Assembly: GCA_963697125.1 (NCBI GenBank) | Contig: CAVOMW010000006.1 | Coordinates: forward strand, 79,354 to 143,353 | Length of the DNA: 64,000 bases | Origin: an uncultured Actinomycetes bacterium | GTDB taxonomy: Bacteria; Actinomycetota; Acidimicrobiia; IMCC26256; DASPTH01 | Direction of reading: 5' to 3' | The notes under the pieces: generated by a model | The model's database searches: none | What the model was told of the DNA's origin: nothing | What the model saw: the letters and a program-made list of their open reading frames with translations, nothing else | Program-made: the position numbers and the translations under genes | In this document: in pieces, positions 158-53,959 of the stretch | Numbering within the stretch: position 1 is the first letter of the stretch | Layout: each line of letters opens with the position of its first letter

Positions 158-1714
158 GCTCCCACCCCTGCCTTCGGGCGCGGAGGGTGCCGGCGGATCG
201 GCGTGCGGCGCGTCGAGACCGGCTTCGATGCCGATGCCCTTCATCTTCACGAGGCGCGGGCGGCGCGCCATGAGCGACACCACCGGGTGCATGAAGAAGT
301 AGGCGACGATCAGGTCGAGGATCGTCGAGATCGCGAGGAAGAGCGCGAAGCCGCGGACGGAGCCGATGGCGAGCACGTAGAGCACCACCGCGCCGATCAG
401 CGACACCAGGTCGGCGGCGACGATGGTGCGGAACGAGCGGGTGAACGACCGGTCGACGCAGGAGCGCACCGTCGCGCCCGCGCGCACTTCGTCCTTCATG
501 CGTTCGTAGTAGACGATGTACGAGTCGACGGTGATACCGACCGACACGATGATGCCGGTGACACCGGCGAGGCTCAGCACGATGGTGATGTTGAGCACGT
601 CGGGCAGGAACCACGCGATCAACGTGTAGAGCGCCATGCCGCTGAGCAGGATCCCCGCGATCACCACGAGGCCCAACAGCCGGTAGAAGACCAGCATGTA
701 GATGGCCACCAGCGCGAGCCCGATGAGGCCGGCGAGGATGCCGGCGTGGAGCTGGTCGTTGCCGAGCGTCGGCGACACGTTCTCGACGTTGACCTGCTTC
801 AGGGTGACGGGCAGCGCACCGAAGCGGATGAGCTTGGCCAGGTTGTCGGCTTCGTCCTGCGTGAAGCTTCCCGAGATCACGGCCGTGCCACCGAACGACG
901 TGAAGGCGGCGTCGGTGGGCTGGATGGTCGGCGCCGACTGCACCAGGCCGTCGAGGACGATCGCCACCTGCTTGTGGAACTGCTGCTGGGCGAGCGCGTC
1001 CCACTTGCTGCTGCCGGAGTCGGTGAGGTCCATCTTCACCGTCCAGCCCTGGCTGGGCACGAACTCCGACTTGGCGGTGTCGACGGTCCCCTTGCCGGTG
1101 AGCGCGGCCTTGCCGAGGTAGTACCGGCCGGCCTTCTTGCCGCCCGGCTTGTCGGGCAGGACGACGCACGCGTTGCGCTGGTCGCCGGCGCGTGCCGTCG
1201 TGGGGATCACCTTGAGCGTCTCGACCGTCGGTCGTCGTCACACGACGCGATCGCGGCCTTCGCCTGCGGCGTCGGTCGGCTGCGGGGTCGTCGGTGGTCG
1301 TGGTCGCGCCCGGCGCGGTCGTGGTGGTGGTCGTGGCCGCTCTTCGCCTGCGCGGCTTCCGACGGCAGCGGACCGAGGCACCGGGCGGAACCGCAGCTCG
1401 GCGGTCTTGCCGACCAGCGCGATCGCCTTCTCGCGGTCCTTCACGCCGGGGAGGTCGATGACGATGTCGCTGCCCTGCCGGGTGATCTCCGGCTCGAGCG
1501 TGCCGAAGGTGTCGACGCGGTTGCGGATGATGTCGATGGCGACGTCGAGGGTGTCGCTCTTGAACTTGCCGACCGGCGACAGCACGACCGACGTGCCGCC
1601 CTGCAGGTCGAGACCGAGGACGGGCTCGTGGCCGGCCTGGACCGTGTAGAGGAAGGTCCCCACGACCACCACGAGGGTGACGACGAGGAAGATGACGTTG
1701 CGACGGACGTTCAT
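158..1714 (-). CDS. secD: Protein translocase subunit SecD (reading frame disrupted in the Thr/Pro linker)
   Basis: ORF 1238..1714 gives the SecD N-terminus (TM1, LGLDLQGG, ELRFRPV). The same frame resumes after an in-frame TGA (1240-1238) with [48 protein letters not shown] and FFMHPV (P1 head plus TM2-6). The stretch 1240-1390 is frame-scrambled. Confidence 0.9.
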
Positions 1715-2025
1715 TCGCCGACTTCACCGTCGTCGACACGACCATCATCGAGGGCTTCGCTCGTCGGGTCGGACGCGGGCTGGGCCATCTGGGCGATCGC
1801 GTTGCGGGCGACGGTGATCACGACCCCGGGCGCGACCTCGAGCTCGATCTTCTCGTCGGTGAGCTCGCGGATGGTGCCGAGGATCCCGCCGATGGTGATG
1901 ACCTCGTCACCGATCTGCAACGAGGCGAGCAGGAGGCGGTGGGCGGTCGTCCGGCGCCGCTGCGGGAGCACGATCAACAGGAAGAACGCCAGCGCGATGA
2001 CGGCGAAGTAGACGAAGATGACCAT
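1711..2025 (-). CDS. yajC: Preprotein translocase subunit YajC
   Basis: Intact 104-aa ORF with a single TM (VYFAVIALAFFLLIV) and the YajC core LQIGDEVITIGGILGTIREL. ATGA overlap with the secD start. Confidence 0.9.
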   Translation of the reverse strand: MVIFVYFAVIALAFFLLIVLPQRRRTTAHRLLLASLQIGDEVITIGGILGTIRELTDEKIELEVAPGVVITVARNAIAQMAQPASDPTSEALDDGRVDDGEVGE

Positions 2026-2101
2026 GGCGTCGAGCGGGTTCCTGACGTTTGCACGGAGCGCGCGGGAGGGGCGCAGACCGGTCGCGGATGCTAGCGGGCC
2101 G

Positions 2102-2786
2102 TCACCGGCCGACCGGGGCAGCGGGGACGGCCGTTGGCCCGAACTTCACCGCCCGTTGGCGGGTCGGGCGAGGAGCGCCAGCGCCTCGGCCTGCTTGCGG
2201 TTGAAGCTCCCGCTGATCACGGCGGTGCCGCCGAACGAGGTCGAAGGTGGCATCGCTGGGCTGGATGATGGGAGCCGACACCACCTTCCCCGACGCGGTG
2301 ATCGCCACCTGCTGGTGGAACTGCTGCTCGGCGAGGGCGTCCCACGGCCTTCGACCCGGCCCGGGTGAGGTCGAGGTGGACCGTCCACCCCTGGCCGGCT
2401 GACGAACTCGGCCCGCGCCCGCCGATCGCGTCGGTCGTGACCCCGGCCGGTCCCAGGTAGTAGCGGCCGGCCGTGTCCGCCGGACGGTCGGGAAACACGC
2501 ACGCAGTGCTCGAGGCCGTCGCGGTGCGCATCGGGTGGTGGGGACGACCGGGAGCTGCGCGACCGCGGCGACGTCGCACGACCGCCACCGTCGGCCGCGG
2601 CGGCGTCGGGCGTCGAGGCGGCCGGTCGTCGGTGGCAGATGCTCGAGCACGGGCCGGAACTCGACGGTCGACGCAGGAGTCCGAGCTGCGGCACCGGCAC
2701 CGGCCCCATCGCGGCCGAGATGCGTCGCGACCAGCGGCGACGACGACGACCGCGAGTCGCGACGCACGTGACCCCAGCCTGGTCAT
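2102..2786 (-). pseudogene. SecD-like periplasmic P1-head paralogue, frame-scrambled and lacking TM2-6
   Basis: The three minus frames carry pieces colinear with SecD: [99 protein letters not shown]. Recognisable nucleotide similarity to 840-1130. At least 5 frame switches. ATG 2786 forms ATGA with the TGA at 2785-2783. Confidence 0.5.
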
Positions 2787-5022: not shown

Positions 5023-5756
5023 CTAGAAGGCTCAGTCGGCGTCGTGGCGGATGCTGCGGCGCCTCGCTTGCGGCGCTTGAAGATCGAGCGGACCGCCACC
5101 ACCACGACCAGTCCGGCCACGATCGGCACCAGCCGCTTCCCCACCGAACCACCGGCCGCGTCCATGAGGTCGATGGGCTCGGCCTCCTTGGAGTCGATCT
5201 TGCGAACCCCGGCCGCCTCTCTGGCGCCTCCGTCCGTCGGCGCAGCGCCCGCGTCCTCGGGACTCTCCGCCGCTGGCGGCGCGATCGTCGGTTCGGTGGG
5301 AGTCTCCGATCCCGACAGCACGTCCTTCTTGAGGTTGTCGGCGAACTGGCCGAGCAGCTTGCTCGACACGTCGGCCATCACGCCTCGGCCGAACTGCGCC
5401 ACCTTGCCGGTGATGTTGAGGTCGGTGTCGATGTTGACGGTGGTCGCGGCGTCGCCGTCGGCCACCAGCGTGGCGACGACGGTCGCCGACGCGTTGCCCT
5501 GCCCGCGGGTGTCGCGGCCCTCGGCCTGCAGCACCACCTTGCGGTTGGCCTCGTCGGCCTCCTCGATCTTGGCCACGCCCTTGTACTGCGCGGTGATGGG
5601 ACCGACCTTGATCTTCACCGTCCCGCGGTACTCGTCGCCCTCCACCTCGGTGAGCTGCGCGCCGGGGAGGCAGGGGGCGATGCGCTCGAGGTCGAGGAGC
5701 ACCTTCCAGGCCTCGTCGACGGGTACTTCCACCCGGAAGCTGTCTTCGATCTTCAC
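5023..5756 (-). CDS. SRPBCC/CoxG-family protein with C-terminal TM anchor
   Basis: First ~245 aa of ORF 4251..5756: FRVEVPVDEAWKVLLDLERIAPCLPGA..GTVKIKVGPI..ITGKVAQFGRGVMADVSSKLLGQFADNL, then TM LVPIVAGLVVVVAV. The listed frame reads through into ruvC. TAG 5025-5023 and TGA 5034-5032 lie in the other frames, so the 3' end is approximate. Confidence 0.7.
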
Positions 5757-6379
5757 TGGTCCTCCTGCTGCAGTCGTTCGAGGTCTTCGAGGGTGTCGAC
5801 GTCGGCGGCGCTGCCCGTGTCGGTGCAGTCGATCCGGACGGCACGATCCCGGGCCAGCGCCCGGGCGCCCACGTCGCCGCGGAGCTCCAACGCTTCAGGC
5901 CAGAGGCTACGCGCCAGCTTGACCGGATTGCCGGGCTGCCCGCGTACGTCGGGACCACGAGATCCCCACTGGTCGCCGCGACTCGCGCGGTAGGCCTCGG
6001 CGCTCACGCGGGGCTGGTCGGCCAGGCCCACGCACACGGCGTCGACGTCGGCGCGGGGGATGAGCGTCGTCAGCACCGCACGCAGACTCGACGCGATCCC
6101 CTCTTCCCACTGCGGGTTCTCGACCACTTCCACCGCGACCATCTCGGAGTTGACCCCCACATGCGTACGCGAACTTTGAGATGTTCGGGAGAGCGCGGCG
6201 CGGACCTCGTCGCCGCGGTACCCGACGACCACGAGCACGGGCCGGAGTCCGGAGTCGCGCGCGGCGTCCACCGCCCACGCGACCAGCGGTCTCCCCCGCC
6301 ACTCGAGCAACGGCTTCGACGCGTCACCGCCGAGTCGCGACCCACGACCGGCGGCGAGGACGGCAACGGCGACGCTCAA
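5753..6379 (-). CDS. MobA/MocA-like nucleotidyltransferase (molybdenum cofactor cytidylyltransferase family) carrying an in-frame 16-codon repeat insertion
   Basis: Intact 208-aa ORF: AVLAAGRGSRLG (NTP-binding loop), VVVGYRGDEV, VENPQWEEGIASSL, GLADQP. ATGA overlap with the coxG-like gene. Confidence 0.75.
   Translation of the reverse strand: MSVAVAVLAAGRGSRLGGDASKPLLEWRGRPLVAWAVDAARDSGLRPVLVVVGYRGDEVRAALSRTSQSSRTHVGVNSEMVAVEVVENPQWEEGIASSLRAVLTTLIPRADVDAVCVGLADQPRVSAEAYRASRGDQWGSRGPDVRGQPGNPVKLARSLWPEALELRGDVGARALARDRAVRIDCTDTGSAADVDTLEDLERLQQEDQ
6140..6188 (+). repeat. 49-nt palindromic repeat, copy 1 (inside the mocA-like CDS)
   Basis: catctcggagttgacccccacatgcgtacgcgaactttgagatgttcgg. 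43/49 identical to the reverse complement of 23207-23255 and 39/49 identical to 24193-24241. Arms CATCTCGGAGTT/AACTTTGAGATG can pair (12 bp including G-U). Confidence 0.85.
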
Positions 6380-22513: not shown

Positions 22514-23176
22514 TCATGTCGCGCGGGGTCCGACGCCTTCGATGCGGAGCGATCCCTCGCCCTTGTGCCGGAGGTTGACGGTGAGCAGCGCCGCCGAGAA
22601 GGTCTCGAGGCCGATCGCGTTCTCGAGCGTGCCGGCGTCGAAGGCCCGCAGGTCGGGGATGGCGTCGACGAGGTCGAGGACGGTCGTGCGGCCCTCGTCG
22701 TCGCCGACGACGAGGACGTCTCCCTTGAGCGGTTGGCTGATGTCGGCGAGCGCGGCGGCGGGGACCAGGTGGAACGCAGCCACCACGTACGCCGCGGGCG
22801 CCACCGCCTTCACCTCGGCCGCGATCGAGCCCGCGGGCGACGGTACGGGTACGAACTGACGGCCCCGCTTCTCCAGGCCGTTGGCCATGGAGATGACGAT
22901 CTTGCCGGCGAGCTGGTCGGCGTGGGCCTTCGCCGTCGGGACCGCGGCGTCCCAGACGGTGGCGAGCACCACCAGGTCGGCAGCGGCGGCGTCGTGGTTG
23001 CTACCGGGCTCGAGGCCGGCCACCCGGTCACCCCAGCGAGCACGGACCTCGTCGACGACCTGGGCCGCGCGTTCCCGGTCGCGCGACCCCACGGTCACGC
23101 GGTGACCGGTCGCGGCCAGCCGGGTGGCGATTCCCCGCCCGGCCGGTCCAGTCCCCCCCAACACGCCGATGTGCAT
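22514..23176 (-). CDS. npdG: NADPH-dependent F420 reductase
   Basis: Intact 220-aa ORF: MHIGVLGGTGPAGRGIATRLA (Rossmann), VGSRDRERA, and the C-terminal dimerisation region typical of Fno/NpdG. Confidence 0.8.
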   Translation of the reverse strand: MHIGVLGGTGPAGRGIATRLAATGHRVTVGSRDRERAAQVVDEVRARWGDRVAGLEPGSNHDAAAADLVVLATVWDAAVPTAKAHADQLAGKIVISMANGLEKRGRQFVPVPSPAGSIAAEVKAVAPAAYVVAAFHLVPAAALADISQPLKGDVLVVGDDEGRTTVLDLVDAIPDLRAFDAGTLENAIGLETFSAALLTVNLRHKGEGSLRIEGVGPRAT

Positions 23177-23206
23177 GCCCGAGAGCTTCGCACATGGCCG
23201 CGACCA

Positions 23207-23255
23207 CCGAACATCTCAGGATGCACGTACGCATGTGGGGGTCAAGTCCGAGATG
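23207..23255 (-). repeat. 49-nt palindromic repeat, copy 2 (left terminal inverted repeat of the DUF559 cassette)
   Basis: The reverse complement is catctcggacttgacccccacatgcgtacgtgcatcctgagatgttcgg, 43/49 identical to copy 1 including an exact 20-nt core. It lies in the npdG/DUF559 divergent spacer. Confidence 0.85.
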
Positions 23256-23300
23256 CTCGCGGGGGTGTGACTCTCCGGCGACCGCTGCGTCAGTTCCTCG

Positions 23301-24206
23301 GTGACCACTTCGTCCCTCTTCGACCTCGCCCGCCGCCAACACGGGCTGATCACGCGCCAGCAGGCGCTCATGGCGGTGTCGGCCAACACACTCGATCGGC
23401 GGATCAGAGCCCGACTCCTGGAACCCGTGCGGCGAGGGGTGTACCGCCTGGGAGGAGTCCCCGAGACCTGGGAGCAGCAACTGCTCGCGGTGTGCTTGTC
23501 CGCAGGACCGGAGGTTTGTGCATCCTTCAGATCAGCCGCCGCGCTGGACTCGTTCGAAGGATTCCCACGCGAAGGGCTGGAGGTCACGCACTTCGGGAGT
23601 CGGCCGTCGGCGATCGAGGGCGTCGTCGTGCACGAGTCGGCGGTGTTCGACCCCAGGCACCTGAGGCGAGTCGCTGGCATCCCGACGACATCGGTCGCAC
23701 GCACCCTGTGCGACCTCACCGCCGTCGTGCCGAAGTGGACCGTCGAACGTGCCGTCGACGAAGCGTTGCGGCGCAAGATCGTGCGGCTCGGCGACATCGT
23801 CGCGGTCGCTGAGCTCCTCGAAGGCCGAGGACGACTCCGGTGCACGGTGATGCGCGAGATCCTCGAGCACAGGCGGCCCGGCTACGAACCCGGCGACAGC
23901 GACCCGGAGCGGCGGATCGCGGAACTGCTGGTCCGAGCCGGTCTCCCCGAGCCCACCAGGCAGCACCGCGTCGAGATCGGGGGACGCCGATTTCGGATCG
24001 ATCTCTGCTACCCCGAGTTCAAGATCGCGATCGAGTACGACGGATGGGAGTGGCACTCGGGGCGTCGAGCCTTCGATGAAGACCGTGCACGCGCGAATCA
24101 GCTCGTGGTGCTGGGCTTCGCGGTGCTGCGCTTCACCTCGAAGTCGACCGAGCAGTCGATCGTCGATACGGTGAGCGCCGCGATCGAGCGAGCATCGCGG
24201 GGATGA
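23301..24206 (+). CDS. AbiEi-like wHTH / DUF559 (Vsr-like endonuclease fold) domain protein
   Basis: Intact 301-aa ORF. N-terminus LARRQHGLITRQQALMAVSANTLDRRIRARLLEPVRRGVYRLGG. C-terminus ERRIAELLVRAGLPEPTRQHRVEIGGRRFRIDLCYPEFKIAIEYDGWEWH..ARANQLVVLGFAVLRF (DUF559 signature). Confidence 0.8.
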   Translation: MTTSSLFDLARRQHGLITRQQALMAVSANTLDRRIRARLLEPVRRGVYRLGGVPETWEQQLLAVCLSAGPEVCASFRSAAALDSFEGFPREGLEVTHFGSRPSAIEGVVVHESAVFDPRHLRRVAGIPTTSVARTLCDLTAVVPKWTVERAVDEALRRKIVRLGDIVAVAELLEGRGRLRCTVMREILEHRRPGYEPGDSDPERRIAELLVRAGLPEPTRQHRVEIGGRRFRIDLCYPEFKIAIEYDGWEWHSGRRAFDEDRARANQLVVLGFAVLRFTSKSTEQSIVDTVSAAIERASRG

Positions 24207-24241
24207 CCCCCATATACGTACGTCAACTCTGAGATGCTCGC
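24193..24241 (+). repeat. 49-nt palindromic repeat, copy 3 (right terminal inverted repeat of the DUF559 cassette)
   Basis: catcgcggggatgacccccatatacgtacgtcaactctgagatgctcgc, 39/49 identical to copy 1. It overlaps the DUF559 stop (24204-24206) and ends 3 nt before the dnaE stop. Confidence 0.8.
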
Positions 24242-24243
24242 TC

Positions 24244-27200
24244 TCAGGTGATGCAGTCGGCGCCGAGGAGGATGCGGAGCTCGGCGTAGAGGCCGGTGCC
24301 GGCGTCGACGAGGTGGTCGTCGCCGAGGCGCAGGACGGTGGTCTTCTCCGGGCTCTCGAGGTGCACGTAGACCGGGCTGTCGCCGGGGTGCTCGGAGAGG
24401 ATGTTCTTCAGCTGGCCGACCTTGGCGTCGGAGAGCAGGTTGAGCTTCACCTTCACCCGCACCGGCGGCCCGGTGTCGACCGACAGCTCGGGGCGCACGA
24501 CCTCCATGGCGATGATCTTGGGCTGGTCCTCGCGGACGTCGAGGCGACCCTTGATCACGACGATGGCGTCGTCCTCGAGGAGATGGCCGTACTGCTCCAT
24601 CGTCTTCGGGAACACCATCACCTCGAGCGCGGCCCCGAGGTCCTCGAGCGTGAACGTGGCCATGAGGTCGCCGCGCTTGGTGTAGCGGCGGTTGAGCGCG
24701 GTGACGATGCCGCCGACCGTGCGCATCTCACCCTCACGACTGTCGCGCAGCTCGGCGAGCGTGCCGTCGGTGTACTTCCGCAGCGCACGTTCGGCGCCCA
24801 TCATCGGGTGGTCGCTCACGTAGAGGCCGAGCATCTCCTTCTCGAACGTGAGTCGTTGCGACTTCGGGAACTCGGTGTCGGGGATGTCGGTGCGGTGGCC
24901 GACCACCGACTCGGGCGCGGGATCGTCGACGGCGGAGAAGAGGTCGAACTGACCTTCGGCCTCGTTGCGACGACGGCCGAGCACGGTCTCGATGATGGTC
25001 TCGTGCACGAACACGAGCCCCTGGCGCGGGTGGCCGAGCGAGTCGAACGCGCCCGCCTTCGCCAGTGACTCCACGCAGCGCTTGTTGAGCACCGACGGGT
25101 CGACCCGGTCGCAGAAGTCGTAGAAGTCGGTGAACGGGCCGCCCTCCTCGCGCGCCGCGACGATGTGCGCGACCACGCCTTCGCCCACGTTGCGGACCGC
25201 GGAGAGCCCGAACCGGATGGCACTCCCCCGGTCGGGGTGGGTGCGCACCGAGAAGTCGGAGACCGACTCGTTGACGTCGGGGACGAGCACCTCGATGCCC
25301 ATCTGCCGGCACTCGTTGAGGAAGACCGCGGTCTGGTCCTTGTTGGTCTTGACCGAGGTGAGCAGCGCGGCGAAGTACTCGGGCGGGTAGTTCGCCTTGA
25401 GCCACGCGGTCTGGTACGTGACGTAGCCGTAGCCGAACGAGTGCGACTTGTTGAACGAGTAGTCGGCGAACGGCTCGATCATGTCGAAGAAGTCGTTGCC
25501 GAACGCCTCGGTGTGCCCGTTGGCGACGCACCCCTCGACGAACTTCGTGCGCTCCTTGGCGATGAGGGCGCGGATCTTCTTGCCGGTGGCCTTGCGGAGG
25601 TTGTCGGCCTCCTCCAGCGAGTAGCCGGCGAGCCGCTGCGCGACGCGCATCAGCTGCTCCTGGTAGATCATCAACCCGTAGGTGGGCTCGAGCACCTCGC
25701 GCAGGTCCTCGTGGGGGTAGCTGACCGGCTTGCGACCGTTCTTGCGGTCGGCGTACTCGTTGTGCCAGTTCTGCGCCATCGGACCCGGGCGGTACAGGGC
25801 GATGAGCGCGGCGACGTCTTCGAACTCGGTGGGCGCGAGCGAACGCAGCAGCGCGCGCATGGGTCCGCCTTCGAGCTGGAACACGCCCACGGTGTCGCCG
25901 CGGCGGAGCAGGTCGAACGTGGCCGGGTCGTCGAGGGGGACGCGGTCGATGTCGGGGCGGGCGCCGGTGTTCTCGGCGATGAGGTCGAGCGCGATCTCGA
26001 GGACGTCGAGGTTGCGCAGCCCCAGGAAGTCCATCTTGAGCAGGCCGAGGTCTTCGACCCCGTGCATCTCGTACTGGGTGACGATCGGCGCGTCCTCGAT
26101 GCGGCCCCCGGCTTCGGGCTTGCGCTGGATCGGGAGGTACTCGGTGAGCGGATCGCGCGTGATGACGACGGCGGCGGCGTGGATGCCGTCCTGGCGGCGG
26201 AGGCCTTCGAGGCCGCGGGCGACGTCGATGACGCGCTTGGCGTCGGGATCGGACTCGTAGAGCGTGCGCAGCTCGGTGGCCATCTTGTAGCCGTCTTCGT
26301 GGCCGGTGACCTTCTCGAAGCACGCGCGCAGCGGCGTGTCGCGACCCATGATCAGCGGCGGCATGAGCTTCGCGATCCGGTCGCCGATGAGGTACGGGTA
26401 GCCGAGCACGCGCGCGGAGTCGCGCACCGCGGCACGCGCCTTGATGGTGGAGAAGGTGACGATCTGCGCGACGTGGTCCCACCCGTAGCGCTCGGCGGCG
26501 TACTTGATCATCTCGCCGCGGTAGCGAGAGTCGAAGTCCATGTCGATGTCGGGCATCTGCTTGCGGCCGGGGTTGAGGAACCGCTCGAACAGCAGGTCGT
26601 ACTTGATCGGGTCGATGTCGACGATGCGCAGGCAGTAGGCGACGCAGGACCCCGCCGCACTCCCCCGGCCCGGCCCGACGCGGATGCCCCGCGAGCGCGC
26701 GTAGCGCACGAGGTCCCACACGATCAGGAAGTACGCCGAGAACCCCATCGTCTTGATGACGCCGAGCTCGAACTCGATGCGCTCGAGCACCTCCGGCCCG
26801 GGCGAGATCCCGTAGCGCTCCTTCGCTCCCTCGATGCACAGCTCGCGGAGGAACGAGTCTTCGTCGTGCCCGGGAGGCGTGGGGAACGACGGGAGCACCG
26901 CGTTGCCGAACTCGATCTCGACCGCGGCGCGCTCGGCGATGAGCAGCGTGTTGTCGCACGCCTCCTCGTAGTCGGAGAACAGCGCGCGCATCTCCGACGC
27001 GGTCTTGAGGTAGAACTCGTCGGCGTCGAACTTGAAGCGCTTCGGGTCGGACTGCAGCGCGCCGGTCTGCACGCACAGCAGCGCGTCGTGCGACTCGGCG
27101 TCGTGGCGATGCGTGTAGTGCGAGTCGTTCGTCGCCAGCAACGGTGCGCGCATGTCGCGCGCGAGCTTGATCAGCTGCGGATTGACCTGCAGCTGCTCGG

Positions 27201-27771
27201 GGAGCCCGTGGTCCTGCAGCTCGACGAAGAACGAGTCGCGACCGAAGATCGACTGGAAGCGCTCGACGTGCTGCTGCGCGAGCGTGTAGTTGCCCTCGAG
27301 GATGGCCTGCGACACCGCGCCGCCCAGGCAGCCGGTGGTGCCGACGAGACCCTCGTGGTGCTGCTCGAGCAGGTCGAAGTCGACGCGGGGCTTCTGGAAG
27401 AAGCCGTCGAGGTACGCGCCCGACGACACCTTGATGAGGTTCTTGTACCCCTGCGTCGACTCGGCGAGGAGCGTGAGGTGGTAGATGTCGTGCTCGTCAC
27501 GCCGCGGGCGATCGTGACGCGACGTGGTGACCATGTACGCCTCGGTGCCGATGACCGGCGTGAGGTCGAGGTCGCGCGCGGCGCGGTAGAAGTCGAGGAC
27601 GCCGTACATGTTCCCGTGGTCGGTGATGCCCACCGCGGGCTGGCCGTCGGCCGCGGCCGTGGCCACCACCTCGGCGATCCGCGCAGCACCGTCGAGCATC
27701 GAGAACTCGGTGTGCAGGTGGAGGTGGACGAACGACTTGGCCAACGATGCCCTTATCCACACGTCCTCCAC
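24244..27771 (-). CDS. dnaE: DNA polymerase III alpha subunit (DnaE1 type)
   Basis: Intact 1175-aa ORF: PHP domain FVHLHLHTEFSMLDGA, palm GPGRGSAAGS..DIDMDF, OB fold, C-terminal tau-binding region. The start may be GTG 27771 or TTG 27744 (after AAGGG). Confidence 0.97.
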   Translation of the reverse strand: MEDVWIRASLAKSFVHLHLHTEFSMLDGAARIAEVVATAAADGQPAVGITDHGNMYGVLDFYRAARDLDLTPVIGTEAYMVTTSRHDRPRRDEHDIYHLTLLAESTQGYKNLIKVSSGAYLDGFFQKPRVDFDLLEQHHEGLVGTTGCLGGAVSQAILEGNYTLAQQHVERFQSIFGRDSFFVELQDHGLPEQLQVNPQLIKLARDMRAPLLATNDSHYTHRHDAESHDALLCVQTGALQSDPKRFKFDADEFYLKTASEMRALFSDYEEACDNTLLIAERAAVEIEFGNAVLPSFPTPPGHDEDSFLRELCIEGAKERYGISPGPEVLERIEFELGVIKTMGFSAYFLIVWDLVRYARSRGIRVGPGRGSAAGSCVAYCLRIVDIDPIKYDLLFERFLNPGRKQMPDIDMDFDSRYRGEMIKYAAERYGWDHVAQIVTFSTIKARAAVRDSARVLGYPYLIGDRIAKLMPPLIMGRDTPLRACFEKVTGHEDGYKMATELRTLYESDPDAKRVIDVARGLEGLRRQDGIHAAAVVITRDPLTEYLPIQRKPEAGGRIEDAPIVTQYEMHGVEDLGLLKMDFLGLRNLDVLEIALDLIAENTGARPDIDRVPLDDPATFDLLRRGDTVGVFQLEGGPMRALLRSLAPTEFEDVAALIALYRPGPMAQNWHNEYADRKNGRKPVSYPHEDLREVLEPTYGLMIYQEQLMRVAQRLAGYSLEEADNLRKATGKKIRALIAKERTKFVEGCVANGHTEAFGNDFFDMIEPFADYSFNKSHSFGYGYVTYQTAWLKANYPPEYFAALLTSVKTNKDQTAVFLNECRQMGIEVLVPDVNESVSDFSVRTHPDRGSAIRFGLSAVRNVGEGVVAHIVAAREEGGPFTDFYDFCDRVDPSVLNKRCVESLAKAGAFDSLGHPRQGLVFVHETIIETVLGRRRNEAEGQFDLFSAVDDPAPESVVGHRTDIPDTEFPKSQRLTFEKEMLGLYVSDHPMMGAERALRKYTDGTLAELRDSREGEMRTVGGIVTALNRRYTKRGDLMATFTLEDLGAALEVMVFPKTMEQYGHLLEDDAIVVIKGRLDVREDQPKIIAMEVVRPELSVDTGPPVRVKVKLNLLSDAKVGQLKNILSEHPGDSPVYVHLESPEKTTVLRLGDDHLVDAGTGLYAELRILLGADCIT

Positions 27772-33621: not shown

Positions 33622-34490
33622 CTAACGGCGTCGCTCGGCACGAGCCTTGCAGTCGACGCAGGTCTCGGCGTAGGGAAGCGCCTCGAGGCGCTCGAGGGTG
33701 ATGCGGCGGCCGGCCGGGAGGCAGACGCCGTAGGTGCCGTTGGCGATGCGCTCGAGCGCGCGGTCGATCTCGTCGACGATCTGCTGCGCCGACGCCGACA
33801 GCAGCAGGTCGCGCTCGCGCTCGATGTTGATGGTGTCGCCCTCGCCCGACTCCTCGTCGAACTGGGTGTCGCCGCCCTCGCGCTCGGCCGCGAGCTGGTC
33901 GGCTTCGGCCTGGAGCTCGGCGGCCGGACTGGACGTGACGCGCCCGCTCCTCGCGCAGGCTGGCCTCCAGCCGCTCGAGCGTCTTGGGTGACAGACCGGG
34001 CTTCTCGGGCTTGACCTCGAAGCCCGACAGCGGGCAGATCACGGTGGTGGGCTTGCGGGGCGCCTTCTTGACCGGTTCGGCCTTGGCTGCGGGCGCCTTC
34101 TTGGCCGGGGTCGCCTTCGCCGGCGCCGCCTTCTCCGCCGAGCCCGCCTTCTGGGGGGTCGCCTTCTTGACCGGGGCCTTGGCCGCCGCCTTCTTCGCCG
34201 GGGCCGCCTTCGCCGCCGAGCCCGCCTTCTCCGCCGAGCCCGCCTTCGGTCGGGGCTCGCCTTCTTGGCCGAGGGCGCGCCTTCTGCCGGCGCCGCCTTC
34301 TTGGCCGGCGCGGGCCTTCTTCGCCGGCGCCGTCTTCGGTGGCCGCCTTGTCCGCCGAGCCCGTCTTCTTGGCTGCGGGCGCCTTCTTCACGGGGACGGC
34401 CTTCTTCGCCGCGACCTTGGCCGCGGCAGGCTTGGCGGCGGCGGGCTTGGTCGCCGTCTTGCGTGCAGGCGGTTTGGGTGTTGCGGCCAT
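33622..34490 (-). CDS. TraR/DksA-family zinc-finger protein with N-terminal Lys/Ala/Pro-rich histone-H1-like repeats
   Basis: N-terminus MAATPKPPARKTATKPAAAKPAAAKVAAKKAVPVKKAPAAKK.. followed by more AKKA-type repeats in shifted frames. Coiled-coil EADQLAAEREGG..DEESGEGDTINIERERD. C-terminus RIANGTYGVCLPAGRRITLERLEALPYAETCVDCKARAERRR. Several frame breaks. Confidence 0.7.
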
Positions 34491-44819: not shown

Positions 44820-46229
44820 GGTCGCGGCGCCAACCACTCGTCGGGGGCGGTGGTGAGGTCGCCGGCGCCGAGCGTCAGCACGACGTCGCCGGGGCGGGCG
44901 AGGCGCGGCACGTGCGCGACGAGGTCGGCGCGGCGGGGCAGGTAGGTGACGGCCTGTTCGGGGTGCGCGTCGAGCACGGCGCGCAGGACGAGCCGACCCG
45001 ACACGCCGGGCTGGGGCTGCTCCCCGCCGCGTACACGTCGGTGAGCACGAGCGCGTCGGCGCCCGAGAACGCGTCGGCGAAGTCGCGCCACAGCGCTGCG
45101 GTGCGCGTGTAGCGGTGCGGTTGGAACACCGCCACGACGCGCTCCCAGCCGCCTTCGCGGGCGGCACGGATCATGGCGTCGACGTCGCTCGGCAGGTGCG
45201 CGTAGTCGTCGACGTAGGTGACGCCGTCGCGCTCACCCCGGAACTGGAACCGGCGCGCCACCCCGGCGAAGCCGCCGAGCGCGCGCGTCACCGCGTCGAA
45301 GGGCGCACCGAGCTCGAGCGCGATCGCGGCCGCGCCGGCGGCGTTCACCGCGTTGTGGCGTCCGGGTACCGGGAGCTGCACGAGCCCGAGCACCTCACCG
45401 CGACGCGACAACGTGAACTGCGTGCCGCCTCGATTGCCCTCGTAGTCGTGCATGCCGTAGTCGGCTGATTCGGCGAACCCGTAGGTGACGACGCGGCCGA
45501 CGGCGTCGCCGCGCGTCACGATGGTGGCGGCGATGTCGGCGGCGACGTCATCGTCGGCGCACACCGCGCACACCCCGGGGATGCGGGCGACGAACGTCTC
45601 GAACGCGGCGACCAACGCGTCGAAGTCGCCGTAGTGGTCGAGGTGGTCGGGCAGCACGGAGGTGACGACGGCGTCGTGCGGCGCGAGCTCGAGGAAGGTG
45701 CCGTCGCTCTCGTCGGCTTCGACGACGAGCCACTCGCCGGAATCGAACACCGCGTTGGTGCCGACCTCGTTGAGATCGCCGCCGATGAGGAAGCTGGGGT
45801 GCCAACCGGCCGCCCGCAGGATCAGCGCGAGCATCGACGAGGTGGTGGTCTTGCCGTGGCTGCCCGCCACCGCGACCGTCGTGCGGGTGGCGACGATGGC
45901 GCGCAGCGCGTCGGCGCGTCGCAGCACCGGGATGCCGCGCTCGCGTGCGGCGACGACCTCGGGGTTGCTCTCGGGGATCGCGGTGGAGATCACGACCGCG
46001 TCGAGCCGGTCGGGCAGGTGCTCGGCGGCGTGTCCGATGTGCGTGGTGACCTCGAGGAGCCCGAGGCGTTCGAGGGCCGGCGACTCACGCAGGTCGGAGC
46101 CGCTCACGCTGTGCCCCATGCCGCGCGAGCACGGTGGCGATCGCGCTCATCCCCGCGCCGCCGACGCCGACGATGTGGATGGCGTGCGGTTGCGTCGAGA
46201 TCGAGGTCGAGGTGCGAGCTCGCGGTCAC
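44816..46229 (-). CDS. murC: UDP-N-acetylmuramate--L-alanine ligase
   Basis: HIVGVGGAGMSAIA is in a shifted frame near 46150. The main body ORF 44875..46119 has GSHGKTTTSSM and DESDGTF. The C-terminus is ORF 44816..45091 (..LTLGAGDL). About 3 frame breaks. GTGA overlaps at both ends. Confidence 0.9.
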
Positions 46230-48590: not shown

Positions 48591-49963
48591 GCCGGCTCTC
48601 CCCCGTTCCGGCATCCTGCCGGTTCGTCCGCCAACGACGTCACTTCGCGCGCGAAGTCGTCACCCCGCGCGGCATAGCTCTCGTACCAGTCGAACGACGC
48701 ACACGCGGGCGACAACAGCACTGCGTCGCCCGGCTGCGCGTGCGTCGACGCGACGCGCACTGCCTCGCGCATCGAGTCGGCGCGCACGACGGGCACCGCG
48801 CCCGCGAACGCCGCTTCCACTTCACCGGCCGCCTCACCGATGGCGACGACTGCGCGCAGTTGCGGCGCGTGCACGCGCAGCCCACCGAGGTCGAGGCCCT
48901 TGTTGCGGCCGCCGGCGATCAGCACCACGTGCTCGAAGCCCGCCAGTGCGCCGGCGGTGGCGTGGGGGTTCGTGGCCTTGGAGTCGTCGTACCAACGGAC
49001 CCCGCCGCGCTCGGCCACGAGCTGCACGCGGTGCGCGAGGCCGCCGAAGCCGTCGAGGGCACGCGCCACCGCGTCGATGTCGGCGCCGACCGCCAATGCA
49101 GCCGCCGCGGCGGCGAGCGCGTTGGCGGTGTCGTGGGGTGCACCCGAAGCCGGCACCGCCGCGAGCACCCCGGGCGGCCCGACCAGATCGTTGCCCACCA
49201 CGCCGTAGTCGCCGGGAGCAGGCAGGCCGGTGCCGAAGCGCACCACCGGCGCGGGCGCACCGGCGGCGAGCGCCAGCGCGACCGGGTCGTCACGGTTGAC
49301 GACGACCAGCCCCGACGCACCCTGGTGACGGAAGAGCTCGGCCTTGGCCTGCGCGTACGCATCGACCGAGCCGTGCCAGTCGAGGTGGTCTTCGGCCACG
49401 TTGAGCAGCACCGCGACATCGGGGGCGAACGCGTCGGTGGTGAACGCGAGCTGGAACGACGACACCTCGGCCACCACGACCTGCACGTCGTCGCCGGCGG
49501 CGTCGAGCAACGGACGACCGATGTTGCCGGCGGCGGCGCTGGTGATGCCGGCCTCGCGCAGGATGGCGTCGATCAAGGTGGTGACGGTGGTCTTGCCGTT
49601 GGTGCCGGTGACCGCGACGAGCTTGGGCGCGTCCGGACGCGCCCGCAGGCGCGCGGCGGCGAGATCGATCTCCGACCGCACCGGCACGCCGGCGTCGTGG
49701 GCGGCGACGAGCGCGGGATGGTCGGGACGCACCCCGGGGCTGGGGACGACGAGATCCGCGGCGCGGCCCTCGGCTGCGGCCGCGGCGGCGTCGGGACGTT
49801 CGATCACGCGGGCGCCGTCGAACTCGGCGCGCGCGACTCGTGCCGCGTACGCCTCGCCGCCGCCGGGGGCGTCGTCGAGCACGGTGACGTCGTGGCCCGC
49901 AGCGCGGGTGTACGACACCACCGACGCGCCCGTCGTCGCCAGGCCGACCACGAGGACGCGCAT
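48587..49963 (-). CDS. murD: UDP-N-acetylmuramoylalanine--D-glutamate ligase
   Basis: From Met193 of ORF 48587..50539: MRVLVVGLATTG, VTGTNGKTTV, and C-terminal SPACASFDWY. Intact. Confidence 0.92.
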   Translation of the reverse strand: MRVLVVGLATTGASVVSYTRAAGHDVTVLDDAPGGGEAYAARVARAEFDGARVIERPDAAAAAAEGRAADLVVPSPGVRPDHPALVAAHDAGVPVRSEIDLAAARLRARPDAPKLVAVTGTNGKTTVTTLIDAILREAGITSAAAGNIGRPLLDAAGDDVQVVVAEVSSFQLAFTTDAFAPDVAVLLNVAEDHLDWHGSVDAYAQAKAELFRHQGASGLVVVNRDDPVALALAAGAPAPVVRFGTGLPAPGDYGVVGNDLVGPPGVLAAVPASGAPHDTANALAAAAAALAVGADIDAVARALDGFGGLAHRVQLVAERGGVRWYDDSKATNPHATAGALAGFEHVVLIAGGRNKGLDLGGLRVHAPQLRAVVAIGEAAGEVEAAFAGAVPVVRADSMREAVRVASTHAQPGDAVLLSPACASFDWYESYAARGDDFAREVTSLADEPAGCRNGGEPA

Positions 49964-52414: not shown

Positions 52415-53959
52415 CCGAGCGCCCCCAGCTCCTCGCGGGCGACGACGCGGTCGTCGAACGGCACGTTGCGCTGGTGGGCGAAGGTCTGACCGGTCTCGTG
52501 TCCCTTGCCGGCGATCACGACCACGTCGCCGGGCGCGGCCGCGGCGAGTGCGTCGGCGATGGCCGCACGCCGGTCGAGCTGGACCCGCACCGCGGGTGCG
52601 TCGGCGAGACCGGGGAGCACGGCGTCGGCGATGGCCTGAGGGTCCTCCGAGCGGGGGTTGTCGGAGGTGAGGACGGCGACATCGGCTCCGGCGGCGACGG
52701 CCGCGCCCATGAGGGGTCGCTTGCCCGGGTCACGGTCGCCGCCGCAGCCGAACACGCACACCACCTTCCCGTCGCCTCTCCCGTCGGCCCGAGCCAGGGG
52801 CCGGGCGGCGGCCAGCACTCGGGTGAGGGCATCGGGCGTGTGGGCGTAGTCGACGAGGACGGCGAAGGGCTGGCCGGCGTCGACCCGCTCCATGCGTCCG
52901 GGCACGACCAGGGGGGCGCCGAGCCCGGCGACCACGGCCTCGAACGGGAACCCGGCGGCCCGAGCGGTGGCGGCAGCCCCGAGGGCGTTGGCCAGGTTGA
53001 ACGACCCGACGAGGGACAGTTCGACCACCGCATCGGTGCCCGAACGCCGATCGACGATCGTGGCTCGCGTCGCAGCAGCGCCGAACACCACGTCGGTGGC
53101 GCCGACGTCGACGGTCGGGGCGTCGGTCGCGTACGTCCACACGTCGATGCCGTCGCTCGCCGCGCGCGCCGCAAGCTCGGCCCCACGTGGATCATCGACG
53201 TTGATCGCGGCCGCGCCGGTGCGCGCACGCGTGAACAGCGACGCCTTCGCCTCGAAGTACTCGTCGAGGGTGCCGTGGTAGTCGAGGTGCTCGTGGCTCA
53301 GGTTGGTGAAGCACACCGCGGCGAACTGCACGCCGTCGACGCGGTGCTGGTGCAGCGCGTGCGACGACACCTCCATCGCGACCGTGCGCGCGCCCGCGTC
53401 GCGCATGCGCGCGAGCAACTCCTGCAGGTCGCTGGCCTCCGGCGTGGTGTGCGCGCGCGGTGCTCGATGCGGTGATCGGCTCACCCGCGACCCGTGCACC
53501 GACGGTGCCGACCACACCGGCGCGGTCACCCGCGGCCTGCGCGATCATCTCGAGCAGGTAGGTGGTGGTCGTCTTGCCGTTGGTACCGGTGACGCCGAGC
53601 ACGCGCATCGACGCCGACGGGTGGTCGAACAGCGTGGCGGCGACGGGTCCCAGCGCAGCCCGCACGCTGGGCACCTGCGCCTGGGCGACGTCGAGCGGCA
53701 ACGGACGTTCGACGAGCAGCGCCACCGCACCCCGGGCCACCGCGTCGGCGGCGTGCTCGTGGCCGTCGGTGACGGCGCCGGGGATGCACGCGAAGCACGC
53801 CCCCGGGCTCGCCTGGCGGCTGTCGTGGGTGATCGCGGCGATCTCGAGGTCGGGATCGCCGGCCCGAACGACCTGGTACCCGACCCGGTCGAGACCGGCG
53901 AGCAGGTCGTGCCAACGCACGCGCGGGCGTCCTCTCGGGTCGGTCACGGGATTGGACAC
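52405..53959 (-). CDS. murE: UDP-N-acetylmuramoyl-L-alanyl-D-glutamate--2,6-diaminopimelate ligase
   Basis: The N-terminus is in the frame of ORF 53192..55894 (DSRQASPGACFACIPG, GVTGTNGKTTTTYL). The remainder is ORF 52405..53529 (MEVSSHAL, NLSHEHLDYHG, DYAHTPDAL, GCGGDRDPGKRP, DNPR). One break near 53460. Start GTG 53959 is tentative. Confidence 0.9.

What the first reader, a model, noticed from the sequence alone, without database searches (positions are those of the whole stretch)
6140..6188. The same palindromic repeat is inserted in-frame inside a mocA-like coding sequence (RPE-like behaviour)
Copy 1 of the repeat is catctcggagttgacccccacatgcgtacgcgaactttgagatgttcgg. It is 43/49 identical to copy 2 and 39/49 identical to copy 3, and shares an exact 20-nt core with copy 2.

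It lies entirely within the otherwise intact nucleotidyltransferase ORF 5753..6379. There, 48 nt of it are translated without a stop as RTSQSSRTHVGVNSEM. This places it between the conserved GYRGDEV and VENPQWEEG blocks, where it lengthens a normally short connector.

The arms CATCTCGGAGTT/AACTTTGAGATG can form a 12-bp RNA or DNA stem. In-frame colonisation of ORFs by palindromic mini-elements is classically known from Rickettsia palindromic elements. I am not aware of it being described for this kind of actinobacterial repeat.
Basis: partly seen in the sequence, partly recalled or inferred. Interest (0 to 1): 0.65.

Follow-up and report, generated by a model that had tools for sequence, protein, structure and literature searches.

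The report
Nuclease-linked palindrome inserted in MocA gene
A 58-bp palindromic DNA unit, whose usual place is as an inverted pair around a conserved DNA-binding nuclease gene, also sits in frame inside a housekeeping enzyme gene as a floppy 16-residue loop, pointing to an undescribed partnership between a nuclease and its own repeat in Acidimicrobiia.

Summary
Copy 1 (6140-6188) is 43/49 and 39/49 identical to copies at 23207-23255 and 24193-24241. It lies in frame in a MobA/MocA-type ORF and encodes RTSQSSRTHVGVNSEM.

About half of the close orthologues lack the segment, and presence and absence are intermixed even between sister sequences. The AlphaFold model places it in the one low-confidence loop. 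Between two insert-bearing orthologues all 16 third-codon positions are identical, against 62% in the rest of the gene, so the constraint acts on DNA, not protein.

The other two copies bracket, in inverted orientation, an AbiEi-like DNA-binding protein fused to a Vsr/I-Bth0305I-type nuclease. This arrangement recurs in 7 of 7 related genomes. The arms change by compensatory substitution, and the two copies evolve in concert (1 of 5040 pairings does as well). The unit has the geometry of a known AbiEi operator.

The family is rare: 3 copies in 64 kb, and 3 hits in 185,579 species' genomes. MocA is the only recurrent in-frame host, so it is not a prolific RPE-like coloniser.

Most likely it is a dispersed copy of the nuclease's cognate site. 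How it spreads is inferred, not shown.

The parts
6134..6191 (+). Bases 6140-6187 are read on the minus strand as RTSQSSRTHVGVNSEM.
   Evidence: Exact sequence. Covariance-model hit of 77.6 bits, E 4.7e-20. Codon alignment.
5753..6379 (-). Host gene: MobA/MocA-like NTP transferase, 208 aa, in the conserved order PNPOx, MocA, CoxG, RuvCAB.
   Evidence: Pfam PF12804, E 2.5e-26. 1261 homologues. Synteny in L001, L002, L003 and L041. AF2 model with pLDDT 84.5; residues 71-80 fall below 50.
23204..23261 (-). Upstream 'home' copy of the unit, in the 124-nt divergent gap between the F420-oxidoreductase gene and the nuclease gene. It ends 39 nt before the nuclease start codon and 28 nt from the oxidoreductase ATG.
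   Evidence: Model hit of 68.5 bits. The same position and orientation in 7 of 7 genomes.
23301..24206 (+). Gene for a 301-aa fusion protein: an AbiEi-like DNA-binding module (about residues 1-190) plus a DUF559/MTES_1575 Vsr-type nuclease domain (about residues 200-300).
   Evidence: Pfam AbiEi_4, DUF559, MTES_1575. PADLOC AbiEi at E 7.5e-25 over residues 4-186. Foldseek: 6y8q AbiEi (TMt 0.68) and 3r3p I-Bth0305I catalytic domain (TMt 0.67). D234, E245, D247 and H252 are invariant in 48 homologues.
24187..24244 (+). Downstream 'home' copy of the unit. Its left arm encodes the last six residues (ERASRG) and the TGA stop of the nuclease gene. It fills the whole 37-nt gap up to the dnaE stop codon on the other strand.
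   Evidence: Model hit of 60.8 bits. The stop codon ends at unit position 20 in 6 of 7 genomes. Nearly all of 120 homologues end in RAS[RAQV][SGTV]* or read through as ..STPPHSTDY.
22514..23176 (-). Neighbour: F420-dependent NADP oxidoreductase-like gene, divergent from the nuclease gene. Its promoter region shares the gap with the upstream unit.
   Evidence: Pfam PF03807. Conserved synteny. A conserved GTGTGCGAAGCTCTCGG lies between the unit and the ATG.
24244..27771 (-). Neighbour: dnaE (DNA polymerase III alpha), convergent with the nuclease gene. Its stop codon abuts the downstream unit.
   Evidence: ORF and translation. Pfam families of the orthologous genes.

Best explanation
The 58-bp element in the MocA-like gene is a dispersed copy of a palindromic unit (two arms of about 19-22 bp around an asymmetric centre of about 14 nt).

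Its home is an inverted pair bracketing a vertically inherited gene for an AbiEi-type DNA-binding module fused to a Vsr/I-Bth0305I-type nuclease.

Shown here:
- The unit is the same in all three places.
- The pair is conserved in position and orientation in 7 of 7 genomes.
- The arms are maintained by compensatory changes, with no strand bias.
- The two home copies evolve in concert.
- The MocA copy is an in-frame, presence/absence-polymorphic insertion in a disordered loop, and its DNA, not its peptide, is conserved.

Inferred:
- The unit is the cognate binding site of the fusion protein, with one monomer per arm, as for AbiEi-family operators.
- The upstream copy acts as an autoregulatory operator.
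- The downstream copy acts as a second site and as a hairpin that ends both convergent transcripts.
- The nuclease, bound at units, occasionally provokes breaks. Templated repair or gene conversion between units then homogenises copies, seeds new ones at ectopic sites, and removes them precisely.

On this reading the MocA copy survives because it fell in an open frame in a surface connector, and it is kept near consensus by protein binding and/or conversion from the home copies.
For: - **Same unit, three copies:**
- **Home pair in 7 of 7 genomes with fixed geometry:**
- **Overlap with the gene's 3' end across 120 homologues at 56-100% identity:**
- **Covariation:** 13 of 19 pairs change on both sides. 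85.5% of cells pair, against 30-38% when the partner is slid, and 0 of 500 shuffles reach this.
- **No strand bias:** G-T versus A-C mismatches are 26 versus 20, p 0.46, as expected for a dsDNA site.
- **Concerted evolution:** within-genome up/down identity is 0.80, against 0.58-0.62 between genomes. Only 1 of 5040 pairings does as well; for the loop alone, 2 of 5040.
- **Protein architecture:** a full AbiEi fold plus a homing-endonuclease-type nuclease domain with invariant acidic and His residues.
- **Operator geometry:** AbiEi and its actinobacterial homologue Rv2827c bind inverted repeats in their own promoters. For Rv2827c these are 23-bp repeats 13 bp apart within 131 bp of the start codon (PMC7319586). 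The unit here matches: 58 bp, ending 37-52 nt upstream of the start.
- **MocA insert is polymorphic:** 54 with, 64 without, 3 remnants, intermixed down to sister pairs.
- **DNA-level conservation:** window versus L003, the insert is 43/48 identical and third positions 16/16. The rest of the gene is 75.5% identical and third positions 61.8% (Fisher p 0.0015). Yet the insert-less L041 gene is closer to the window, at 86.4%.
- **Dispersal:** solo copies sit at different, non-orthologous loci in different genomes.
- **Independence of the home system:** it exists in a genome whose MocA lacks the insert. P0094 (insert-less MocA) and P0154 (nuclease) both list a 188,691-bp contig, inferred to be the same one from the identical length.
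Against: - No binding, cleavage or mobility was observed; all of that is inference from anatomy.
- Copy number is very low, so there is little sign of active spread.
- The C-terminal residues encoded by the left arm lie in a predicted terminal helix. Part of the arm's conservation may therefore be protein-coding constraint rather than site recognition.
- Solo copies were found with a pattern based on this genome's core. I could not test whether solo copies track the home-copy variant of their own genome.
- No target-site duplication or clean boundary could be defined from the empty versus filled comparison.
- Patchy presence on the MocA tree could also come from one old insertion plus recombination between alleles.
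- The NJ tree rests on only 189 columns.
Confidence: 0.45

Rival explanations
1. Regulator only. The units are operator sites for the AbiEi-like domain: autoregulation at the upstream copy, and perhaps a small regulon or roadblock sites elsewhere. Copies arose by ordinary duplication or illegitimate recombination. The nuclease domain has an unrelated job, and nothing about the unit is mobile. The MocA copy is conserved because the protein binds there, for example to modulate transcription into the downstream coxG-ruvCAB genes.
For: - The AbiEi fold and the operator-like geometry and position.
- No strand bias in mismatches.
- Very low copy number.
- DNA-level conservation of the MocA copy.
Against: - It does not explain why solo copies sit at different loci in different genomes, mostly between convergent genes where an operator has no obvious target.
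- It does not explain the repeated presence/absence of the MocA copy among sister sequences.
- It does not explain the decayed remnants.
- It does not explain why the two home copies are homogenised in the loop as well as the arms.
Confidence: 0.27
2. A passive structural palindrome: a REP/MITE-like hairpin that acts as a terminator or mRNA stabiliser, or is simply selfish. It happens to have landed on both sides of the nuclease gene and has no functional tie to it.
For: - Intact copies fold strongly (-28 to -30 kcal/mol, z -4.7 to -5.0).
- Most solo copies lie at gene 3' ends or between convergent genes.
- The downstream home copy fills the gap between two convergent stop codons.
Against: - The bracketing is conserved in 7 of 7 genomes, with fixed geometry, down to 56% protein identity.
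- The two copies co-vary within genomes.
- There are no GTAG or CGTC REP heads.
- There is no T-tail terminator signature.
- There is no strand bias of the kind an RNA hairpin would leave.
- The upstream copy sits in a promoter region, not at a 3' end.
Confidence: 0.13
3. The 16 residues are a protein-level adaptation of MocA, for example a regulatory or interaction loop. The nucleotide similarity to the other copies is secondary.
For: The segment has been retained in about 45% of close orthologues with a recognisable motif, R[TA]S[QR]SSR..VGVNSEM.
Against: - The substitutions between orthologous inserts are amino-acid-changing, while all 16 third positions are identical.
- The segment is predicted to be disordered.
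- It is freely absent in sister sequences.
- The same DNA occurs in non-coding places.
Confidence: 0.05
4. The inverted pair defines an invertible cassette. Recombination between the two copies flips the nuclease gene as an on/off switch, and the MocA copy is a by-product.
For: - Inverted repeats about 925 bp apart flank the whole gene.
- After inversion the coding sequence would regain an almost identical C-terminus and stop codon from the other copy (sequence).
- DUF559 proteins are enriched among predicted programmed-inversion targets (PMC9881135).
- Inversion or conversion would homogenise the copies.
Against: - All 11 loci with gene order show the same orientation.
- No recombinase gene lies next to the cassette.
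- It does not account for the solo copies.
Confidence: 0.06

Closest known systems
Rickettsia palindromic elements (RPE)
   Same: A palindromic repeat inserted in frame in a housekeeping gene and translated as an extra segment that the fold tolerates at its surface (RPE description in PMC10969869).
   Different: RPEs are about 150 bp, fall into ten families, and inserted 44 times in R. conorii, nearly half of them in ORFs. Here the unit is 58 bp and very low-copy, and only one host gene carries it internally. No nuclease gene is known to be tied to RPEs (my knowledge). This unit has a conserved home around one.
REP sequences with their RAYT transposase (REP/RAYT units)
   Same: A single-copy, vertically inherited enzyme gene always flanked by two copies of its palindromic repeat in inverted orientation. 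Gene and repeat co-evolve, and further copies are scattered in the genome (PMC2817692; here).
   Different: - The enzyme is not an IS200/IS605-type HUH tyrosine transposase. It is an AbiEi DNA-binding module fused to a PD-(D/E)XK Vsr-type nuclease.
- The units are longer (58 bp versus 20-40 bp) and lack the GTAG or CGTC heads.
- They number a handful, not more than 100 per genome.
- They show no strand bias suggesting single-strand recognition.
AbiEi-family antitoxin operators (S. agalactiae AbiEi; M. tuberculosis Rv2827c)
   Same: A protein with the AbiEi fold. Its own promoter region carries a pair of inverted repeats of about 23 bp, 3 or 13 bp apart, within about 130 bp of the start codon, giving a total span of about 59 bp for Rv2827c (PMC7319586; here).
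   Different: - There is no DUF1814/AbiEii toxin gene downstream. A nuclease domain is fused in its place.
- A second copy overlaps the stop codon.
- Extra copies lie elsewhere, including inside a coding sequence.
- Binding has not been tested.
Homing endonuclease I-Bth0305I and Vsr/DUF559 nucleases
   Same: The fold of the C-terminal domain (3r3p, TMt 0.67, 24% identity), in the Vsr/DUF559 clade of PD-(D/E)XK enzymes (PMC3424549). The patchy presence, decayed remnants and clean absence of the MocA insert resemble a homing cycle.
   Different: The gene is not inside an intron or intein and does not move; it is syntenic in every genome. The element that comes and goes carries no gene. The recognition site and any cleavage are unknown.

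Membership tests
Rickettsia palindromic elements (RPE-like ORF colonisers) | A palindromic repeat inserted in frame within a coding sequence and translated | tested here: met
   Orthologue alignment, codon alignment and ORF.
Rickettsia palindromic elements (RPE-like ORF colonisers) | Many copies per genome, with a large fraction inside many unrelated ORFs | tested here: not met
   3 copies in 64 kb, 1-2 per MAG and 4-5 in 241 million metagenome records. Peptides of the other four frames find no protein. Only MocA carries it internally. Whole-genome counts for the source genome were not available.
Rickettsia palindromic elements (RPE-like ORF colonisers) | Sequence relatedness to RPE families (about 150 bp) | not tested
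   No RPE sequences were compared. The unit is 58 bp and comes from Acidimicrobiia, so homology is not expected.
REP/RAYT units | The enzyme gene is flanked by two repeats in inverted orientation that co-evolve with it | tested here: met
   7 of 7 genomes. Concerted evolution at 1 of 5040 pairings.
REP/RAYT units | The enzyme is an IS200/IS605-related HUH tyrosine transposase | tested here: not met
   Pfam, PADLOC and Foldseek give AbiEi plus a DUF559/Vsr-type nuclease.
REP/RAYT units | Short (20-40 bp) repeats with a GTAG or CGTC head, usually more than 100 copies per genome | tested here: not met
   The unit is 58 bp. 20 of 21 copies lack both heads. Copy number is low.
AbiE type IV toxin-antitoxin (AbiEi antitoxin with its operator) | A protein with the two-domain AbiEi fold | tested here: met
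   PADLOC AbiEi at E 7.5e-25 over residues 4-186. Foldseek 6y8q, prob 1.00, TMt 0.68.
AbiE type IV toxin-antitoxin (AbiEi antitoxin with its operator) | Inverted repeats of about 23 bp in its own promoter, bound by the protein | tested here: inconclusive
   Position and geometry fit. Binding cannot be tested with these tools. No sigma-70-like promoter was detected by the simple scan.
AbiE type IV toxin-antitoxin (AbiEi antitoxin with its operator) | A partner DUF1814 nucleotidyltransferase toxin (AbiEii) encoded directly downstream | tested here: not met
   The next gene is convergent dnaE in every locus. A DUF559 nuclease domain is fused instead.
Miniature inverted-repeat transposable elements (MITE) | Terminal inverted repeats plus a target-site duplication, derived from an IS with a matching transposase | tested here: inconclusive
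   The unit is one long palindrome. No duplication could be defined from the empty (L041) versus filled comparison at 75-86% identity. No IS-type transposase is associated.
Homing endonuclease systems | A nuclease domain of a known homing-endonuclease fold | tested here: met
   3r3p I-Bth0305I catalytic domain, TMt 0.67, 24% identity. Weak PADLOC HEase hit.
Homing endonuclease systems | The nuclease gene lies within the mobile insertion (intron or intein) and cleaves the empty allele | tested here: not met
   The gene is at a fixed syntenic locus 17 kb from the MocA insert, and the insert carries no gene. Cleavage specificity is not testable here.
MobA/MocA-like NTP transferases (host gene) | A match to PF12804 above the curated cut-off, with the N-terminal LAAGxGxRxG motif intact | tested here: met
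   93.2 bits against a cut-off of 27. G11, R12, G13, R15 and L16 are invariant in the 52-sequence alignment.

The most novel reading that the evidence does not exclude
A conserved AbiEi-Vsr-type nuclease and its 58-bp palindromic site form a long-lived, vertically inherited nuclease-repeat partnership. It would be analogous to RAYT-REP but built on a PD-(D/E)XK nuclease acting on double-stranded DNA. The nuclease acts in trans to copy, homogenise and precisely erase units by break-induced gene conversion. In doing so it writes and removes a 16-residue loop in a housekeeping enzyme: a homing-like cycle for an element that carries no gene of its own.
Probability: 0.25. Interest if true: 0.8.

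Novelty: new variant of a known kind. Interest (0 to 1): 0.62.

Why it matters
- If the fusion protein recognises and acts on these units, this is a second, mechanistically different route to the 'enzyme gene bracketed by its own palindromes' arrangement, so far known only from RAYT-REP. It would also give a first functional lead for the large, uncharacterised class of AbiEi_4-DUF559 proteins of Actinomycetota.
- It provides a clean natural example, outside Rickettsia, of a palindromic DNA element translated as a protein loop. Filled, empty and decayed alleles occur side by side in related genomes, so gain and loss of such inserts can be studied directly.
- For annotation: the unit donates stop codons and C-terminal residues to at least two unrelated genes. 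It also seems to confuse gene callers at both loci.

Tried and rejected
- **Rfam, whole window at gathering thresholds:** no hit, so the unit is not a described RNA family.
- **My early idea that one strand forms the better hairpin** (G-U on the GACCCCCA strand, A-C on the other). Over 21 copies, G-T versus A-C is 26 versus 20 (p 0.46), so I dropped it.
- **Strict core plus arm pattern on genome contigs:** only 3 hits, and the source genome is not in that collection, so no genome-wide count was possible.
- **Core-only pattern on metagenome contigs:** 29 loci, about 24 of them chance matches without arms.
- **tblastn of the nuclease protein against plasmids,** to test whether bracketing is general for this architecture: only two stand-alone DUF559 domains in Proteobacteria, so a dead end.
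- **PDB sequence search with the family profile:** nothing. The fold search was needed.
- **Promoter and terminator consensus scan of 22900-24500:** nothing, which is uninformative for a 71% G+C actinobacterial genome.
- **REP membership:** GTAG/CGTC heads are absent.
- **Target-site duplication from empty versus filled MocA alleles:** the sequences are too diverged to place the boundaries within 1-3 nt.
- **Peptides of the four other frames against 5.8 billion proteins:** no hit, which argues against wide ORF colonisation. Short queries have limited power.
- **Variant MocA insert core (GGGGATCGACCCC, L002 type):** not found anywhere else in the fetched DNA. It is not a simple flip of the standard loop, and its origin stays open.
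Full report
**1. The observation**

The 49-mer is at 6140-6188 exactly as quoted. Its best ungapped partners are 23207-23255 on the opposite strand (43/49, with a 20-nt exact run) and 24193-24241 on the same strand (39/49). The pair 6130-6188 / 23207-23265 is the longest inverted repeat in the whole window (59 nt, 86%). No other place matches within three mismatches, and no shuffle does.

ORF 5753..6379 (-) is 208 aa and a clear MobA-like NTP transferase (PF12804, E 2.5e-26). Bases 6140-6187 are read as RTSQSSRTHVGVNSEM. Rfam has nothing in the window. The window is 71.5% G+C. The nearest named relatives are Acidimicrobiia MAGs.

**2. Is it an insertion?**

Yes. Of 121 close MocA sequences (72-91% identity; 120 homologues plus the window's own), 64 run directly from RAAL-x to VEVVENP. 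Another 54 carry a segment at the same position, and 3 carry short remnants. Gene order (PNPOx, MocA, CoxG, RuvCAB) is conserved, so these are orthologues.

On an NJ tree built without the insert columns, insert-bearing and insert-less sequences are intermixed down to close sister pairs: P0022/P0066, P0001/P0040, P0013/P0067, P0010/P0082. The insert-less L041 gene is 86.4% identical to the window gene at DNA level. The insert-bearing L003 gene is only 75.5% identical. So the insert is a presence/absence polymorphism. Either it has been gained or lost repeatedly, or it has one origin that recombination has shuffled. Some lineages hold shortened remnants (L001, P0028-30, 37, 41, 42, 48) or a variant core (L002, P0021, 36, 53, 70).

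**3. What constrains it?**

Between the window and L003 the insert is 43/48 identical, with all 16 third-codon positions identical. The five differences change amino acids. In the rest of the gene, third positions are 61.8% identical (Fisher p 0.0015). That is the reverse of protein-level selection.

The AlphaFold model (pLDDT 84.5, pTM 0.84) puts residues 71-80 in the only stretch below pLDDT 50, between helix 56-69 and strand 83-87. On the mRNA strand the copy folds no better than shuffled sequence (-17.1 kcal/mol, z -1.0), while intact copies elsewhere reach -30 kcal/mol (z -4.95). The unit is open in four of six frames in most copies, so landing in an open frame is not improbable.

**4. 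Where the unit really lives**

Copies 2 and 3 are in inverted orientation around ORF 23301..24206 (+). That ORF encodes an AbiEi_4 winged-helix domain plus a DUF559/MTES_1575 nuclease domain.
- PADLOC matches residues 4-186 to full-length AbiEi (E 7.5e-25).
- The AlphaFold model (pLDDT 86.2) matches the S. agalactiae AbiEi structure 6y8q over about 200 residues (TMt 0.68). It matches the catalytic domain of homing endonuclease I-Bth0305I, 3r3p, over the last about 100 residues (TMt 0.67, 24% identity).
- D234, E245, D247 and H252 are invariant in 48 homologues.

The gene is syntenic (thrS, cysS-like, F420 oxidoreductase, this gene, dnaE) in all 11 loci examined, so it is vertically inherited and not itself mobile.

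In all seven genomes with DNA (protein identity down to 57%) the gene is bracketed in the same way:
- An upstream unit ends 37-52 nt before the start codon.
- A downstream unit's left arm encodes the last residues and the TGA stop, and the stop ends at unit position 20 in 6 of 7.
- The units are 914-932 nt apart.
- Nearly all of 120 homologues end in RAS[RAQV][SGTV]*, the translated arm. The longer ones read through CCC-CCA-CAT of the core as PPH.

**5. The unit is a maintained palindrome, and the pair evolves in concert**

In an alignment of 21 copies, a 19-pair helix has 85.5% of cells paired, against 30-38% when the partner is slid. Thirteen pairs change on both sides, and 0 of 500 shuffles reach any measure. 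Examples of arm pairs:
- window: CATCTCGGAG/CTCCGAGATG
- L038: CATCCGTCAG/CTGACGGATG
- L039: GAGCATGTGGCGATCGGG/CCCGATCGCCACATGCTC

G-T and A-C mismatches are equally common (26 versus 20, p 0.46). There is therefore no sign that one strand is the folded one. A double-stranded, two-fold symmetric site fits best.

Within genomes the two home copies are 0.80 identical. Orthologous copies between genomes are 0.58-0.62 identical. Only 1 of all 5040 possible pairings does as well, and 2 of 5040 for the loop alone, where symmetry imposes nothing.

**6. Abundance and other contexts**

The family is rare.
- The covariance model finds three copies in the window and nothing else above 18.5 bits.
- A specific pattern finds 3 places in one genome each of 185,579 species. 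One is the orthologous MocA insert (L003). One lies between clpB and purA (L004). One donates the last codons and the stop of an amidohydrolase-like ORF (L005).
- A looser core pattern finds 29 places in 241 million metagenome records. Only L012, L018, L028 and L033 (and perhaps L011) have arms. These lie in short gaps, mostly between convergent genes.
- Peptides of the other four mostly open frames match no protein among 5.8 billion.

So MocA is the only recurrent internal host. The home system also exists where MocA is empty. P0094 (insert-less MocA) and P0154 (nuclease) both list a 188,691-bp contig, which I take to be the same contig from the identical length.

**7. Mechanism**

The steps shown are listed in sections 1-6. 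What follows is inferred.

The unit is the cognate site of the fusion protein. AbiEi represses its own operon by binding inverted repeats in its promoter. The actinobacterial homologue Rv2827c binds 23-bp repeats 13 bp apart within 131 bp of its start codon (PMC7319586). The 58-bp unit, placed 37-52 nt upstream of the start, has that geometry.

Why should a binding site occur as an inverted pair around the gene, be homogenised, turn up at new loci and vanish cleanly? The simplest account is that the attached nuclease makes breaks at bound units, and repair copies from another unit. This resembles REP-RAYT units in layout: the gene is always flanked by two inverted repeats, and gene and repeats co-evolve (PMC2817692). 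It resembles a homing cycle in the pattern at MocA. I put this at 0.45.

The binding-only reading (0.27), a passive hairpin element (0.13), an invertible cassette (0.06) and a protein-level adaptation (0.05) are the rivals. Evidence for and against each is given in its own section. For the cassette rival, DUF559 is enriched among predicted inversion targets (PMC9881135), but 11 of 11 loci have one orientation.

**8. Comparison with what is known, and novelty**

It behaves like an RPE at one gene. It is not an RPE-type coloniser: those are about 150 bp, with 44 insertions in R. conorii, nearly half in ORFs (PMC10969869). It is laid out like a REP-RAYT unit but fails the defining enzyme class, size, head motif and abundance. 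It has an AbiEi operator's geometry but no AbiEii toxin. Full-text searches found no paper tying DUF559 or AbiEi-DUF559 proteins to a cognate flanking repeat, and none describing in-frame palindromic insertions in Actinobacteria. The library is incomplete.

I rate it a new variant of a known kind, with interest 0.62. The in-frame insert alone is a modest curiosity. The conserved, co-evolving nuclease-palindrome pair behind it is the more surprising result, and it is directly testable.

Noticed in passing
window 23177-23206, and the same place in L035-L040: A conserved GTGTGCGAAGCTCTCGG lies between the upstream unit and the ATG of the F420-oxidoreductase gene in all seven genomes. TGcGAAGCT ends 7 nt before the ATG, which looks like an extended -10 element of a leaderless transcript. 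If so, the unit abuts the -35 region of that promoter too.
   Followed up: partly
L005 2137-2194 (MAG Acidimicrobiia SMAG_U2501): A solo unit supplies the last five codons (RASRS) and the TGA stop of an amidohydrolase-like ORF (441..2156). This is the same frame and stop that end the nuclease gene, so the unit can rewrite C-termini as well as insert loops.
   Followed up: partly
L002 10189-10246, and proteins P0021, P0036, P0053, P0070: A variant MocA insert has recognisable arms, but its 15-nt centre is replaced by GGGGATCGACCCC (peptide G.DPV). It occurs in sequences from separate branches of the MocA tree. It is not a simple flip of the standard loop, and it is absent from all other fetched DNA. 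Its origin is unexplained.
   Followed up: partly
window 5753-6379 and 23301-24206: The database products for the window's own genes are truncated: P0004 is 161 aa against a 208-aa ORF with the conserved N-terminal LAAGRGSRLGG motif, and P0121 is 278 aa against 301 aa in the homologues. The gene caller appears to have chosen internal starts (a TTG and a GTG start were missed).
   Followed up: no
window 34049-34424: A run of imperfect 15/18-nt tandem repeats (CTTGGCCGGGGTCGCCTTCGCCGG...). On the minus strand they would encode an Ala/Lys/Pro-rich, histone-tail-like segment (..AAKPAAAKVAAKKAVPVKKAPAAKK..) at the start of an ORF beginning near 34490.
   Followed up: no
L028 918-975: A second, weaker covariance-model hit (22.9 bits, E 5e-4) lies on the same short contig as a true unit at the contig end. 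It may be a diverged copy.
   Followed up: no
window 45806-45876, 49548-49618, 53529-53599: Three 71-nt stretches are 69-72% alike, spaced about 3.7-4.0 kb apart. They are probably the conserved ATP-binding motif of paralogous Mur ligase genes in a dcw-type cluster rather than a repeat element.
   Followed up: no
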